NCBI RefSeq assembly: GCF_017348835.2
Contig: NZ_CP071375.1
DNA: 64,000 nucleotides
DNA from: Escherichia coli
Lineage (GTDB): Bacteria; Pseudomonadota; Gammaproteobacteria; Enterobacterales; Enterobacteriaceae
Direction: 5' to 3' (one strand)
Part shown: piece after piece, positions 61,082 through 64,000 of the stretch
How the letters are laid out: every line of letters starts with the position of its first letter
Numbering within the stretch: the first letter of the stretch is position 1
Made by a program: the position numbers and the translations under genes
Notes under the pieces: model-generated
Told to the model about the DNA's origin: nothing
Seen by the model: only the letters and a program-made list of their open reading frames with translations
Databases searched by the model: none

Positions 61082-61091
61082 TATCCATTGT

Positions 61092-61133
61092 GAATGGTTC
61101 AAAATTGCTACAATTTTGAACCATTCCATTTTT
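61092..61133 (+). terminator. Hairpin terminator immediately after yqeG
   Basis: Seen in sequence: perfect 15-bp inverted repeat GAATGGTTCAAAATT-gctac-AATTTTGAACCATTC followed by CATTTTT. Confidence 0.55.
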
Positions 61134-61540
61134 CATAATGTTCATTTGTTATTATTCCGCCCTATCACTTCTCTCATCATATCCTAGAATTATCAGTTAG
61201 TTAAACACACAAAGAGATCTGAACATCTTAAATAAGACTATTTAAGATGCATAACTTAGATTCGCAAGATATCTTCTGGTCATTCAAAAACAATTTGCGA
61301 TATAGATATTCTCATACCATGAGATAGTTATCCGGACCACTCTCAACCATGCAAGATTAAATCAGTGAAACATAATCATATTTAATAACGAGAAATGCAT
61401 TTTTAAATGTCTTAATCAGAATTATAGCAAATACAGATTAATCGCAATTTTTCCCAGCAACATTACAAAATCATGGTGTATTGACATCATCAATAACCAA
61501 TGAAATTATGCAATTATATACGGATAGGGAGGTTCTTAAC

Positions 61541-62173
61541 ATGGGGCTTTGTAGTCGTTATAAAAGTCTTACATGCAATAGTTGCTCAATGCATTGCCAA
61601 ATAATGCCAGAAGAGTCACCGCGTTTGCAGTATTGCGCAAACTCGTGTTTTTGTATGTGGCCCGAAGAAAGTTCATATTTTAATCGTGGTGTGGTGGAAG
61701 GTATCTTAACAAAAAACCACAATGCGAGATTAAGCGGATATATTTTTGTCGATTTTTCAGTAAGTTTTTTACGTCTATTCCTTGAAAAAGACTGGATTGA
61801 CTATCTTGCAAGTACTGACATGGGGATTGTTTTAGTCAGCGACCGCAATATGCAATCGTTAGCTAACTACTGGCGAAAGCACAACTCAGCAATATCTGCT
61901 GTCATATATAATGATGATGGTCTTGATGTTGCCAATGAAAAGATCAGACAACTATTTATTGGTCGTTATCTATCATTTACCAGAGGTAACACATTAACTC
62001 AGATGGAATTCACCATAATGGGGTATATGGTTTCTGGTTATAACCCATATCAGATTGCTGAAGTTCTGGATATGGATATCCGTAGCATCTACGCGTACAA
62101 GCAACGAATCGAAAAGAGAATGGGTGGTAAAATAAACGAGTTATTTATTCGTTCACATTCGGTCCAACATTAA
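61541..62173 (+). CDS. yqeH: LuxR/FixJ-type HTH regulator YqeH, 210 aa
   Basis: ATG 61541 preceded by GGGAGG (61527-61532); C-terminal LuxR-type HTH (LTQMEFTIMGYMVSGYNPYQIAEVLDMDIRSIYAYKQRIEKRMG); AT-rich gene; matches YqeH. Confidence 0.8.
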   Translation: MGLCSRYKSLTCNSCSMHCQIMPEESPRLQYCANSCFCMWPEESSYFNRGVVEGILTKNHNARLSGYIFVDFSVSFLRLFLEKDWIDYLASTDMGIVLVSDRNMQSLANYWRKHNSAISAVIYNDDGLDVANEKIRQLFIGRYLSFTRGNTLTQMEFTIMGYMVSGYNPYQIAEVLDMDIRSIYAYKQRIEKRMGGKINELFIRSHSVQH

Positions 62174-62506
62174 TACTCAACGATCTGCCAGAATCATACT
62201 CTGCTTATACGGGTATCTATTGGAATGCCCGTATTTTATAAATAAGCAGTAACCCCAAGAGTAAACAACATAGTATTTAAAACCATCACACGAAAAATTC
62301 AGAAGCATTACGAAATATGAATTTATCAACAATAGTGGCATAAATGTTAACCATGTTAATTTATATAAAGTTTTACGTTGCGCCATTAAAGCCTCATTTC
62401 AATCATCATGATAAATATAAAATTAATATATATTTATGCCGTAAATACCAATATACTTAGCAAACTATGTGATTTCCATTTCGATTGATTTAGTGTTTAT
62501 TGACGT

Positions 62507-63316
62507 ATGTACTGGATTATTAACGATAATATCGAGTTCTGGCCTGAGCACCGAAAATTAATATCGGTACATAACGCCGATCTTAACGTCGTTCTGACAA
62601 CGCCAGCCAGTCGTTGTTTATCCCTTCTACTTGAAGCTTTTCCTGATGTGGTTGCACAACAAGATTTTTTCACCAGAGTCTGGGAAGAAGAAGGTATGCG
62701 TGTGCCAACTAACACGTTATATCAGAACATATCCATTATCAGACGCGGATTTCGCGCTGTTGGTGATACTACCCACTCACTTATTGCAACCGTGCCGAGA
62801 AGAGGATTCAAGATCCATAATGACATTAACATACAAAATCATGTAATAAACTCGTCAACAGACGCACATACACACAATACCCCACCGGCCATAAAAGTTA
62901 ATGCGGGATACAAAGAGAGCATTGGTGGCGCAAAGAATTTCAATAACAAAATCCTCAAACATATAAAAAGTTATCTAATTATGTTGAGCGCATTTGTCAT
63001 AGGCGCATATTTTGCATATTGGCTATGGAATAATAATCAACCGAAGCCATTTTTCAAGGATTACAAGACTGTTGCGGAAATTAATGGCTGCCATTTTAAT
63101 GTAACAGAAGATACAATTGATGGGTTGAAAGAGTTCGATAAATATAAAACACGGATACTGGATTCGGGGATTAACTGTAAAAAATATCCGTGGTTATACT
63201 TCCCTCTTGCAAAATCCTCACCGGGGATGATTGTTATGGCATGCAATAAAAACTATAACCAACATGAAGTGGCAGGCTGTTTAACCCTGTCTTACCGTGA
63301 GGTTAATCGTGATTGA
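62507..63316 (+). CDS. yqeI: ToxR/CadC-like membrane-anchored transcriptional regulator YqeI, 269 aa
   Basis: 269-aa ORF; N-terminal OmpR/PhoB-type winged-helix region, one central TM segment (IKSYLIMLSAFVIGAYFAYWLW), periplasmic C-domain; AT-rich; matches YqeI. Confidence 0.8.
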   Translation: MYWIINDNIEFWPEHRKLISVHNADLNVVLTTPASRCLSLLLEAFPDVVAQQDFFTRVWEEEGMRVPTNTLYQNISIIRRGFRAVGDTTHSLIATVPRRGFKIHNDINIQNHVINSSTDAHTHNTPPAIKVNAGYKESIGGAKNFNNKILKHIKSYLIMLSAFVIGAYFAYWLWNNNQPKPFFKDYKTVAEINGCHFNVTEDTIDGLKEFDKYKTRILDSGINCKKYPWLYFPLAKSSPGMIVMACNKNYNQHEVAGCLTLSYREVNRD

Positions 63317-63791
63317 TTATAAAAAAAACTTATTATTTATTTTAGTTTTTATCAGTGGGTTTATTCTCTTCACTGTCTATTCTTACACTGCAGAAAAAAT
63401 GATATATAATGAGACATGCACTGCAAATTGGGTAATTTTTAATGACCAGGGGCGAGCAAATCTTACTATCGACTTTATGTATAACCAAAAAAATAAAACA
63501 GGAACTGTTGCGTTGAGTGGAACCTGGCAACAAGGTAACAGAGAAAGTAAATCAATACGGCGAAATATTGAATACACATGGGTTGAAAACTATGACACAG
63601 CCCATTTAACATCAAAGAAAGTTAATAAGTTTGAGATTATGGATCAAGTCGATGATGATAGACTTGCAGAACTTATTCCTGATTTTTATGTCTTTCCAGA
63701 AAAAAGTGTAAGCTATAATATACTAAAGCAAGGTAAGCATGCTTTTATTTTGAGTATTGGTAACAGAGCAATAATGCATTGTGCAAGGTAA
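63309..63791 (+). CDS. yqeJ: Small single-pass membrane protein YqeJ (ToxS/FidL-like partner of YqeI), about 160 aa, GTG start
   Basis: ORF overlapping the yqeI 3' end by 8 bp; N-terminal TM segment (LLFILVFISGFILFTVYSY) then a soluble domain; matches YqeJ. The alternative GTG at 63297 gives 164 aa. Confidence 0.75.
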   Translation: MIDYKKNLLFILVFISGFILFTVYSYTAEKMIYNETCTANWVIFNDQGRANLTIDFMYNQKNKTGTVALSGTWQQGNRESKSIRRNIEYTWVENYDTAHLTSKKVNKFEIMDQVDDDRLAELIPDFYVFPEKSVSYNILKQGKHAFILSIGNRAIMHCAR

Positions 63792-64000
63792 ACTAAAATA
63801 GATAACAAAAAGATGGAACCTCGTTAATCATAAAACAATAAAATTAAATATGCTTGCAGTATATGGCAGTCTAAAGTATCAAAGTTTTGATCAACATCTT
63901 TCATTTCAGACATCCCCTTGCAATGTAAAATATCATGTATCAACAACATCTGGTGCAAATCCATGAGTCGAACTCTACATTCATCTTAGCTCGATTATTA

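What the first reader, a model, noticed from the sequence alone, without database searches (positions are those of the whole stretch)
61082..64000. AT-rich yqeH-yqeI-yqeJ block: compositionally foreign regulator island with a ToxR/ToxS-like overlapping pair
From just after yqeG the sequence becomes markedly AT-rich with long AT-rich intergenic regions (61134-61540, 62174-62506), unlike the flanking core genes. It encodes a LuxR-type HTH protein (yqeH), then a regulator with an N-terminal OmpR/ToxR-type winged helix, a single TM helix and a periplasmic domain (yqeI), whose 3' end overlaps by 8 bp a small single-pass membrane protein (yqeJ). That membrane-anchored one-component regulator plus small bitopic partner is the ToxR/ToxS architecture (also like Salmonella SPI-3 marT-fidL). 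From established knowledge this locus adjoins the degenerate ETT2 type III secretion island of E. coli; such AT-rich regulator islands are typically H-NS silenced. The signal sensed and the regulon of YqeI/YqeJ are, as far as I know, uncharacterised.
Basis: partly seen in the sequence, partly recalled or inferred. Interest (0 to 1): 0.5.

Follow-up and report, generated by a model that had tools for sequence, protein, structure and literature searches.

The report
Known ToxRS-like regulator pair in ETT2
This AT-rich stretch is the yqeH-yqeI-yqeJ end of the E. coli ETT2 pathogenicity island, and YqeI/YqeJ really is a ToxR/ToxS-type membrane sensor pair, but that was published in 2022, so it is a correct yet ordinary finding.

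Summary
Window 61082-64000 is 34.8% GC against 51.4% for the rest of the window. It carries yqeH (LuxR/EcpR-type regulator), yqeI (ToxR-type winged helix, one TM helix, Cys-rich periplasmic domain) and yqeJ (N-terminal TM helix plus periplasmic beta-barrel). yqeJ overlaps yqeI by 8 bp.

My own tests support the ToxR/ToxS reading:
- YqeI's DNA-binding domain matches V. cholerae ToxR best of all PDB sequences.
- The overlapping regulator-partner pairing is kept in distant family members.
- All three genes are 40-42% identical to Salmonella SPI-3 counterparts (an EcpR_N protein, MarT and FidL).

Two points need correcting. The block is inside the glyU-anchored ETT2 island (left junction near 61255), not beside it. 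It is also not uncharacterised. Kinch et al. 2022 classified YqeI/YqeJ as a VtrA/VtrC-ToxR/ToxS "co-component" cassette and reported that the periplasmic domains form a complex. APEC knock-outs of yqeI and yqeH exist. The fragment has served as a model H-NS/StpA-silenced hairpin.

The ligand and the direct DNA targets remain unknown. Verdict: real, correctly interpreted, already known, low interest.

The parts
61092..61126 (+). Terminator-like hairpin (16-bp stem followed by a T-run) closing the core gene yqeG. Context only, not part of the island.
   Evidence: Conserved in island-less strain clone D i2.
61225..61248 (.). Perfect 10-bp palindrome ATCTTAAATA-AGAC-TATTTAAGAT, lying 7-9 bp before the island junction. 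Function unknown.
   Evidence: Present in island-less and island-bearing Escherichia.
61255..61257 (.). Left (yqeG-proximal) junction of the ETT2 island. Homology with island-less strains, in which yqeG is followed by tRNA-Gly glyU, ends here.
61481..61532 (+). Candidate yqeH promoter (TTGACA, 17 nt, TG-extended AATTAT, 61481-61509) and SD AGGGAGG (61526-61532).
   Evidence: the total promoter count is not above chance. The sequence is conserved in E. albertii and Escherichia sp. E4742. An RpoS-holoenzyme SELEX peak is reported in this spacer (PMC5493296).
61541..62173 (+). yqeH: 210-aa cytoplasmic EcpR_N + GerE (LuxR-type HTH) regulator with a Cys-rich N-terminus.
   Evidence: 40% identical to the SPI-3 EcpR_N protein.
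62174..62506 (.). 333-bp yqeH-yqeI intergenic region at 29.7% GC. It holds 4 of the 6 near-matches to the H-NS motif, which is no more than AT-richness predicts.
62507..63316 (+). yqeI: 269-aa transmembrane transcription regulator. ToxR-type wHTH (residues 28-102, window 62588-62812), variable linker (111-154), TM helix (155-174, window 62969-63028), periplasmic domain (175-269) with four conserved Cys.
63299..63302 (+). GAGG Shine-Dalgarno for yqeJ, inside the 3' end of yqeI (translational coupling).
   Evidence: Conserved as GAGG/GGAG in three other Escherichia species.
63309..63791 (+). yqeJ: 160-aa bitopic partner. GTG start, TM helix (residues 5-28, window 63321-63392), periplasmic eight-stranded lipocalin-like barrel (residues ~33-160) with conserved Cys37 and Cys158. 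Overlaps yqeI by 8 bp.
63940..64000 (-). 3' end of yqeK, the next island gene, which runs off the window.

Best explanation
The block is the yqeG-proximal end of the horizontally acquired, glyU-anchored ETT2 island. It encodes a three-gene regulatory module also found in Salmonella SPI-3.

YqeI and YqeJ form a co-component transmembrane transcription regulator of the ToxR/ToxS-VtrA/VtrC kind. The two genes are translationally coupled and both products insert in the inner membrane. YqeJ's periplasmic lipocalin-like barrel pairs with YqeI's disulfide-containing periplasmic domain.

By inference, the heterodimer is stabilised or brought together by a hydrophobic host-derived cue such as a bile or fatty acid. 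That would allow YqeI's cytoplasmic ToxR-type winged helix to bind AT-rich promoters at the membrane and counter H-NS/StpA silencing.

YqeH is a separate soluble EcpR/LuxR-type regulator in the same module. Under laboratory conditions the whole block is silenced by H-NS/StpA.

Shown here or in the literature: composition, island borders, domain architecture, fold, conserved pairing, SPI-3 homology, periplasmic complex formation, silencing, and knock-out phenotypes.
Inferred: the nature of the ligand, the activation mechanism and the direct targets.
For: - Composition and island borders.
- YqeI DNA-binding domain: the best PDB sequence match is V. cholerae ToxR (E=1.7e-7), ahead of PhoB-type regulators (0.0056) and CadC (0.019).
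- TM helices.
- YqeJ model: pLDDT 93.8, pTM 0.80.
- YqeJ family: 128 representatives. 89 of 96 full-length members have the TM helix and 87 of 96 have the Cys pair. C37 and C158 are nearly invariant.
- Conserved pairing: four distant members all have an upstream 254-288 aa gene overlapping by 4 or 8 bp, with Trans_reg_C on record for three of them.
- SPI-3 homology: YqeI-MarT 41%, YqeJ-FidL 42%, YqeH-EcpR_N protein 40%.
- Purifying selection despite fast evolution: dN/dS 0.13-0.28, with the DNA-binding and periplasmic domains at 0.07-0.12.
- The pair is retained in Escherichia species that have lost the T3SS apparatus.
- Literature: co-component classification and co-expressed periplasmic domains forming a dimeric complex (PMC9214523); H-NS/StpA silencing of this fragment (PMC12460168); yqeI and yqeH knock-out phenotypes (PMC7552227; PMC9014576).
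Against: - No ligand has been shown for YqeJ. PsaF, a family member, is described as a pH sensor, and ToxS and TcpH are also described as protease-protecting chaperones (PMC9214523).
- The ToxS/VtrC link exists only at the fold level. The family profile finds nothing in PDB sequences.
- No direct DNA target is known. The APEC transcriptome (587 differentially expressed genes) may be largely indirect, and a yqeI deletion could be polar on the overlapping yqeJ.
- A K-12 yqeI deletion had no growth phenotype on glucose or mannitol (PMC13421365).
- Some lineages carry truncated yqeJ alleles.
Confidence: 0.8

Rival explanations
1. YqeJ is only a stabilising chaperone. It protects YqeI from regulated proteolysis, as proposed for ToxS and TcpH, and binds no ligand. 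The signal would then act on proteases, redox state or pH rather than on the barrel.
For: [quoted passage not shown] YqeI has four conserved periplasmic cysteines and YqeJ has a conserved Cys pair. These would suit redox or DsbA-dependent control.
Against: The closest solved folds, VtrC and ToxS, both bind bile salts in the barrel (descriptions; PMC9214523). The barrel fold is kept across a fast-evolving family. The two mechanisms are not mutually exclusive.
Confidence: 0.3
2. The block is a silenced, decaying remnant with no current function in this strain. The ORFs persist only because H-NS silencing removes any cost.
For: The fragment is strongly silenced by H-NS/StpA. ETT2 in the 100%-identical strain PE164 carries frameshifts in sctN, the YscQ-family gene and ygeF. 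About 32% of complete E. coli genomes lack yqeI-yqeJ. Truncated yqeJ alleles exist. yqeH is split in Escherichia sp. E4742. A K-12 yqeI deletion had no growth phenotype.
Against: dN/dS is 0.13-0.28, and 0.07-0.12 in the two functional domains of YqeI. The cysteines, the start codon position and the SD are conserved across four Escherichia species. The pair is retained where the T3SS apparatus is gone. In APEC, the yqeI knock-out phenotypes were complemented and the yqeH knock-out showed similar defects.
Confidence: 0.12
3. YqeI is an ordinary stand-alone one-component membrane regulator like CadC, and yqeJ is an unrelated small membrane protein that merely lies next to it.
For: There is a weak NCBIfam match of YqeI to CadC (E=3e-4, far below the cut-off). 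YqeJ has no hit in the local Pfam-A library.
Against: The gene pairing with a 4-14 bp overlap is conserved in every family member examined. The YqeJ fold is ToxS/VtrC-like. A periplasmic complex is reported.
Confidence: 0.03

Closest known systems
Salmonella SPI-3 MarT/FidL (plus the adjacent EcpR_N-type regulator; from memory this is RmbA)
   Same: These are sequence homologues of all three genes: YqeI-MarT 41%, YqeJ-FidL 42%, YqeH-EcpR_N protein 40%. They have the same domain layout, the same four periplasmic Cys in the regulator and the same Cys pair in the partner. Both sit in an AT-rich pathogenicity island.
   Different: In SPI-3 the module flanks the MisL autotransporter gene, which is MarT's known target (PMC9214523). 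The ETT2 copy has no adjacent adhesin gene, and its neighbours are T3SS-related genes. Gene order and orientation also differ.
Vibrio ToxR/ToxS
   Same: Both have a membrane-anchored ToxR-type wHTH regulator with a downstream small bitopic partner. The YqeI DNA-binding domain's best PDB sequence match is ToxR. The YqeJ model's best structural match is ToxS.
   Different: There is no detectable sequence similarity between YqeJ and ToxS (9-14% identity in structural alignments; the profile search found nothing). The periplasmic domain of YqeI was not compared here. toxRS is a core Vibrio locus with a known regulon (ompU/ompT, toxT), whereas YqeI's targets are unknown.
Vibrio parahaemolyticus VtrA/VtrC bile-acid receptor
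   Different: VtrC lacks the conserved Cys pair of the YqeJ/FidL group (Kinch et al.). Bile-acid binding and the target (vtrB) are demonstrated for VtrAC but not for YqeIJ.
EHEC GrvA/FidL
   Same: It is a paralogous cassette in E. coli O157:H7 belonging to the same disulfide-containing FidL/YqeJ group (PMC9214523). The YqeJ family profile matches a FidL_like protein at 95.9% probability.
   Different: It sits at a different locus. GrvA has a described output, LEE-dependent adherence. I did not examine it here.

Membership tests
Co-component transmembrane transcription regulators (ToxRS / VtrAC / MarT-FidL superfamily, Kinch et al. 2022) | The regulator has an N-terminal cytoplasmic ToxR/CadC-type winged helix-turn-helix. 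| tested here: met
   Pfam Trans_reg_C at residues 28-102, E=4e-9. The best PDB sequence hit is the V. cholerae ToxR DNA-binding domain, E=1.7e-7 over residues 2-103.
Co-component transmembrane transcription regulators (ToxRS / VtrAC / MarT-FidL superfamily, Kinch et al. 2022) | The regulator has a single TM helix followed by a periplasmic C-terminal domain. | tested here: met
   One Kyte-Doolittle segment at 155-174. The 95-residue C-terminal domain with four Cys is conserved in Escherichia species and in MarT, with dN/dS 0.07-0.09. This is a hydropathy test only; no dedicated topology predictor was available.
Co-component transmembrane transcription regulators (ToxRS / VtrAC / MarT-FidL superfamily, Kinch et al. 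2022) | The regulator's periplasmic domain adopts the VtrA/ToxR alpha-beta fold. | not tested
Kinch et al. report a similar fold lacking the C-terminal helix, from AlphaFold models (PMC9214523).
Co-component transmembrane transcription regulators (ToxRS / VtrAC / MarT-FidL superfamily, Kinch et al. 2022) | An adjacent downstream gene encodes a small bitopic protein with a short N-tail, a TM helix and a periplasmic domain. | tested here: met
   YqeJ is 160 aa with a TM helix at 5-28. 89 of 96 full-length family members have the N-terminal TM helix.
Co-component transmembrane transcription regulators (ToxRS / VtrAC / MarT-FidL superfamily, Kinch et al. 2022) | The partner's periplasmic domain is a VtrC/ToxS-like lipocalin-type beta-barrel. 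| tested here: met
Co-component transmembrane transcription regulators (ToxRS / VtrAC / MarT-FidL superfamily, Kinch et al. 2022) | The two genes are co-transcribed or overlapping, and the pairing is conserved across the family. | tested here: met
   The overlap is 8 bp here, 8 or 14 bp in three Escherichia species and 4 or 8 bp in four distant members. Co-transcription itself was not tested.
Co-component transmembrane transcription regulators (ToxRS / VtrAC / MarT-FidL superfamily, Kinch et al. 2022) | The two periplasmic domains form a heterodimer. | not testable with these tools
   Reported for co-expressed YqeI/YqeJ periplasmic domains (PMC9214523).
Co-component transmembrane transcription regulators (ToxRS / VtrAC / MarT-FidL superfamily, Kinch et al. 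2022) | A periplasmic cue (bile acid or other lipid) modulates the regulator's output. | not testable with these tools
   No ligand or signal is reported for YqeIJ in any paper read.
ToxS family proper (sequence family) | Detectable sequence homology to ToxS. | tested here: not met
   Neither YqeJ alone nor the 100-sequence family profile finds ToxS or VtrC among PDB sequences. Identity in the structural alignments is 6-14%. So it works like ToxS, but it is not a sequence-level ToxS family member.
Pfam YqeJ_C (PF27292) / FidL_like (PF15941) | A match to the family model and a conserved N- and C-terminal Cys pair. | tested here: met
   The precomputed PF27292 assignment covers YqeJ and its relatives, including Salmonella FidL. 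hhalign against a FidL_like protein gives 95.9% probability, E=5e-9, with both Cys aligned. Only 2 of 100 members hit PF15941 directly.
Horizontally acquired tRNA-anchored genomic island (ETT2) | Deviant composition, presence/absence polymorphism and a tRNA gene at one border. | tested here: met
   34.8% against 51.4% GC. Present in 3716 of 5426 genomes. In island-less strains yqeG abuts tRNA-Gly. No tRNA-derived direct repeat was found in the window, which includes the far (yqeG-proximal) junction, and no integrase was seen in the parts examined.
H-NS-silenced xenogeneic DNA | H-NS/StpA binding and derepression in hns mutants. | not testable with these tools
   Sequence proxies only: TpA steps and AT tracts are enriched, but H-NS motif hits are no more than AT content predicts. 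Experimental support comes from the literature. This fragment was used as a model H-NS/StpA hairpin, and ygeH rose about 5-fold in an hns mutant and about 150-fold in an hns stpA double mutant (PMC12460168). H-NS also binds the ygeH regulatory region (PMC11068852).

The most novel reading that the evidence does not exclude
The three genes may act as one portable sensory cassette: an EcpR_N/LuxR regulator plus a ToxRS-like pair, shared as a unit by ETT2 and SPI-3 at a uniform ~40% identity. That cassette has outlived its T3SS in K-12, E. marmotae and Escherichia sp. E4742. The reason would be that it has been rewired to control core-genome traits such as flagella and adhesion in response to a gut lipid, possibly with YqeH acting downstream of YqeI/YqeJ in a ToxR-to-ToxT or VtrA-to-VtrB style cascade.
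Probability: 0.25. Interest if true: 0.4.

Novelty: already known. Interest (0 to 1): 0.15.

Why it matters
YqeI/YqeJ is the only ToxRS-type co-component sensor in E. coli K-12, according to Kinch et al. It sits in one of the most strongly H-NS/StpA-silenced regions of the chromosome. Finding its ligand and direct targets would show what signal, if any, wakes the ETT2 island, and why these regulators survive when the secretion apparatus decays. That question is still open.

Tried and rejected
1. First YqeJ structure prediction, from 8 near-identical Escherichia sequences: pLDDT 49.7, unusable. It was replaced by a 100-sequence alignment.
2. Sequence searches of YqeJ, alone and as a family profile, against PDB sequences: no ToxS or VtrC hit. 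The link is at the fold level only.
3. The local Pfam-A scan gives no family for YqeJ. The newer PF27292 YqeJ_C appears only in precomputed annotations.
4. Search for a tRNA-Gly 3'-end direct repeat anywhere in the window, which includes the left island junction: none.
5. Rfam scan of 59500-64000 at E<=1: nothing.
6. Promoter-like sites are not enriched over shuffles (12 against 14.9). H-NS motif matches are no more than AT content predicts (6 against 7.0 +/- 2.8).
9. dS between E. coli and E. albertii is saturated for yqeH and yqeJ, so those dN/dS values are undefined.
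Full report
**Observation**

Window 59800-64000 is 100% identical to E. coli strains PE164 and F2_81, and 5414 of 5426 complete E. coli genomes have a match to it. RefSeq annotation transferred to window coordinates gives:
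- yqeG 59852-61081 (+)
- yqeH 61541-62173 (+, 210 aa)
- yqeI 62507-63316 (+, 269 aa)
- yqeJ 63309-63791 (+, 160 aa)
- a 26-aa hypothetical ORF at 63824-63904 (-)
- the 3' end of yqeK from 63940 (-)

The compositional shift is large. The block 61082-64000 is 34.8% GC against 51.4% for the rest of the window, and the lowest of 582 equal-sized windows elsewhere is 45.6%. Third-position GC is 0.355, 0.385 and 0.267 for yqeH, yqeI and yqeJ, against 0.484 and 0.485 for yqeF and yqeG. The two intergenic regions are 459 and 333 bp at about 30% GC. TpA steps are twice as frequent, and runs of eight or more A/T five times as frequent, as in the rest of the window.

**Island borders**

yqeI-yqeJ is present in 3716 of 5426 complete genomes. 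In the others, such as 83972 and clone D i2, homology stops at about window 61255. There yqeG is followed directly by tRNA-Gly, actS and xdhA. In PE164 the block is followed by about 20 kb of ETT2 genes (ygeG, ygeH and the T3SS apparatus), with frameshifts in sctN, the YscQ-family gene and ygeF. The block is therefore the yqeG-proximal end of the glyU-anchored ETT2 island, not a neighbour of it. A review gives the island as 29.9 kb, adjacent to glyU, at 36.9% GC (PMC11068852). I found no tRNA-derived direct repeat anywhere in the window, which includes the left junction.

**The proteins**

- YqeH has a GerE HTH (E=8e-5). It also has a full-length but sub-threshold match to EcpR (E=2e-20). Precomputed Pfam assigns EcpR_N plus GerE to its E. 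albertii orthologue. It has no TM segment.
- YqeI has Trans_reg_C at residues 28-102 (E=4e-9). Its best match among all PDB sequences is the V. cholerae ToxR DNA-binding domain (E=1.7e-7 over residues 2-103). That is ahead of a PhoB-family regulator (0.0056) and CadC (0.019). It has one hydrophobic segment (155-174) and four cysteines after it.
- YqeJ has one N-terminal hydrophobic segment (5-28) and cysteines at 37 and 158.

The annotated yqeJ start is GTG at 63309, six bases after GAGG (63299-63302). The yqeI stop is at 63314-63316, so the overlap is 8 bp. The same start position, with the same upstream SD, is used in E. albertii and Escherichia sp. E4742 (ATG) and in E. marmotae (GTG), with overlaps of 8 or 14 bp. 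Kinch et al. list YqeI/YqeJ as a non-overlapping exception. Under the RefSeq start it does overlap, although not through the Cys-codon/ATG arrangement they describe.

**Is YqeJ ToxS-like?**

By sequence it is not. YqeJ alone and a 100-sequence family profile find nothing relevant in PDB sequences, and the local Pfam-A library has no family for it.

An exhaustive profile search found 128 cluster representatives, mostly 150-165 aa. Of 96 full-length members, 89 have the N-terminal TM segment and 87 have the N-proximal plus C-terminal Cys pair. C37, G65, G71, R85, F126 and C158 are nearly invariant.

With this alignment AlphaFold2 gives a confident model: pLDDT 93.8, pTM 0.80, a TM helix, eight strands and one short helix. 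An earlier model from eight near-identical sequences was unusable. Two independent structure searches place ToxS and VtrC first:
- Foldseek: the three best hits are ToxS chains (E=9e-4 to 1.5e-3; TM-score 0.56-0.58 query-normalised and 0.62-0.65 target-normalised). VtrC follows, then eukaryotic lipocalins.

The family profile also matches a Pfam FidL_like protein with 95.9% probability and both cysteines aligned.

**Is the pairing conserved?**

In four distant YqeJ-family loci, a 254-288 aa gene lies immediately upstream and overlaps by 4 or 8 bp. Trans_reg_C is on record for three of those upstream genes. YqeI has full-length homologues at 40-50% identity in Citrobacter, Kosakonia, Enterobacter, Trabulsiella, Kluyvera, Yokenella and Salmonella.

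The Salmonella homologue lies in SPI-3 next to mgtCB. It is followed by a 154-aa YqeJ_C protein (FidL), the MisL-type autotransporter and a 205-aa EcpR_N protein. Pairwise identities are YqeI-MarT 41%, YqeJ-FidL 42% and YqeH-EcpR_N protein 40%. So the whole three-gene module, not only the pair, is shared with SPI-3. From memory, this ETT2/SPI-3 relationship was already noted in the older ETT2 and SPI-3 literature, and Kinch et al. cite it.

**Selection**

Compared with E. albertii, Escherichia sp. E4742 and E. marmotae:
- yqeG: 96-98% identical at the protein level (compared with E. albertii and E4742 only; the E. marmotae contig lacks yqeG), dN 0.012-0.023, dN/dS about 0.02.
- yqeI: 64-74% identical, dN 0.17-0.24, dN/dS 0.13-0.17.
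- yqeJ: 56-68% identical, dN 0.21-0.29, dN/dS 0.13-0.28.

Within YqeI, the DNA-binding and periplasmic domains have dN/dS of 0.07-0.12, while the cytoplasmic linker is at 0.34-0.39. dS is near or beyond saturation, so these ratios are rough. The pair is fast-evolving but constrained, in line with the "fast-evolving" label of Kinch et al.

E. marmotae and Escherichia sp. E4742 have no T3SS apparatus genes at this locus, yet they keep yqeI, yqeJ and a 468-aa ygeH-like gene. yqeH in E4742 is split by a 1-bp deletion.

**What is already published**

- Kinch et al. 2022 (PMC9214523) list E. coli K-12 and Sakai YqeI/YqeJ as a candidate co-component system. They call YqeJ a lipocalin, group it with FidL through the conserved disulfide, and treat YqeI/YqeJ as orthologues of MarT/FidL. 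They also state that the co-expressed periplasmic domains form a dimeric complex.
- Later papers list YqeI with YqeJ among transmembrane transcription regulators and "coTTRs" (PMC10269533; PMC13042144).
- A yqeI deletion in APEC changed 587 transcripts and lowered flagellar gene expression, serum survival, adhesion and organ loads (PMC7552227). The paper's own motility sentence is internally inconsistent, and polarity on the overlapping yqeJ was not addressed.
- A yqeH deletion in APEC gave similar phenotypes (PMC9014576).
- The yqeG-ygeI fragment was used as the model H-NS/StpA "chromosomal hairpin". ygeH rose about 5-fold in an hns mutant and about 150-fold in an hns stpA double mutant (PMC12460168).
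- An RpoS-holoenzyme SELEX peak is reported in the yqeG-yqeH spacer (PMC5493296).
- A K-12 yqeI deletion had no growth phenotype on glucose or mannitol (PMC13421365).

**Mechanism**

Shown here or in the cited papers: a foreign, H-NS/StpA-silenced island end; a ToxR-type membrane-anchored regulator translationally coupled to a bitopic partner with a ToxS/VtrC-type barrel; periplasmic complex formation; and knock-out phenotypes.

Inferred by analogy with VtrA/VtrC and ToxR/ToxS: the YqeJ barrel, completed by YqeI's periplasmic domain, binds or responds to a hydrophobic host cue. This would stabilise or oligomerise YqeI so that its winged helix binds AT-rich promoters and relieves H-NS silencing. 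The ligand and the direct targets are unknown.

The main rival is a chaperone-only role for YqeJ, meaning protection of YqeI from proteolysis. It is not excluded and could coexist with ligand sensing. The decaying-remnant reading is weakened by the purifying selection and by retention of the pair after T3SS loss.

**Verdict**

The content is already in the literature, and the only open parts are the signal and the regulon. Novelty: already known. Interest: low.

Noticed in passing
window 61225-61248: A perfect 10-bp palindrome (ATCTTAAATA AGAC TATTTAAGAT) lies 7-9 bp before the point where homology with island-less strains ends. It is conserved in island-less clone D i2, in Escherichia sp. E4742 and, nearly, in E. 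albertii. It could be a protein-binding site or be related to the junction.
   Followed up: partly
window 61541-61654 (YqeH residues 1-38): YqeH has seven cysteines in its first 38 residues. C12, C15, C19 and C32 (CxxCxxxC...C) are conserved in the 40%-identical SPI-3 EcpR_N protein. The EcpR profile only begins to align at about residue 31. This may be a metal or redox site.
   Followed up: no
window 61541-63791 compared with L010: Divergence is very uneven within one 2.3-kb block. YqeH is 93% identical between E. coli and E. albertii, while the adjacent YqeI and YqeJ are 64% and 56% identical.
   Followed up: partly
L011 1535-8554; L012 77-4379: Escherichia sp. E4742 and E. marmotae have no T3SS apparatus genes at this locus. 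They keep yqeI, yqeJ and a 468-aa ygeH-like regulator between yqeG and actS/xdhA. In E4742, yqeH is split by a 1-bp deletion.
   Followed up: partly
window 61481-61532: A TG-extended promoter-like site (TTGACA, 17 nt, AATTAT) and the SD AGGGAGG upstream of yqeH are conserved in three Escherichia species. An RpoS-holoenzyme SELEX peak is reported in this spacer (PMC5493296).
   Followed up: partly
L003 1-4486; L008 1-4498; L013 6001-10334: Adhesin genes recur next to YqeJ_C/FidL cassettes: TPS/filamentous haemagglutinin in L003 and L008, and the MisL autotransporter in SPI-3. L008 carries two cassettes (FidL_like and YqeJ_C) beside a phage-type integrase. The ETT2 copy has no adjacent adhesin gene.
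   Followed up: no
proteins P0003, P0024, P0026; H63: Truncated YqeJ clusters (92-99 aa, about 330-350 members each, some from complete genomes) and a YqeJ-SLT fusion protein in E. coli E22 point to attrition of yqeJ in some lineages. IS2 and IS1 insertions in the block were also seen in single strains (H54 and H64).
   Followed up: no
window 63299-63316: Kinch et al. 2022 list YqeI/YqeJ as a non-overlapping exception. With the RefSeq GTG start at 63309 (SD GAGG at 63299-63302) the genes overlap by 8 bp, and the start position is conserved in four Escherichia species.
   Followed up: yes
window 61092-61126: A strong terminator-like hairpin (16-bp stem with a T-run) lies 11 bp after the yqeG stop. 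It is also present in island-less strains.
   Followed up: partly
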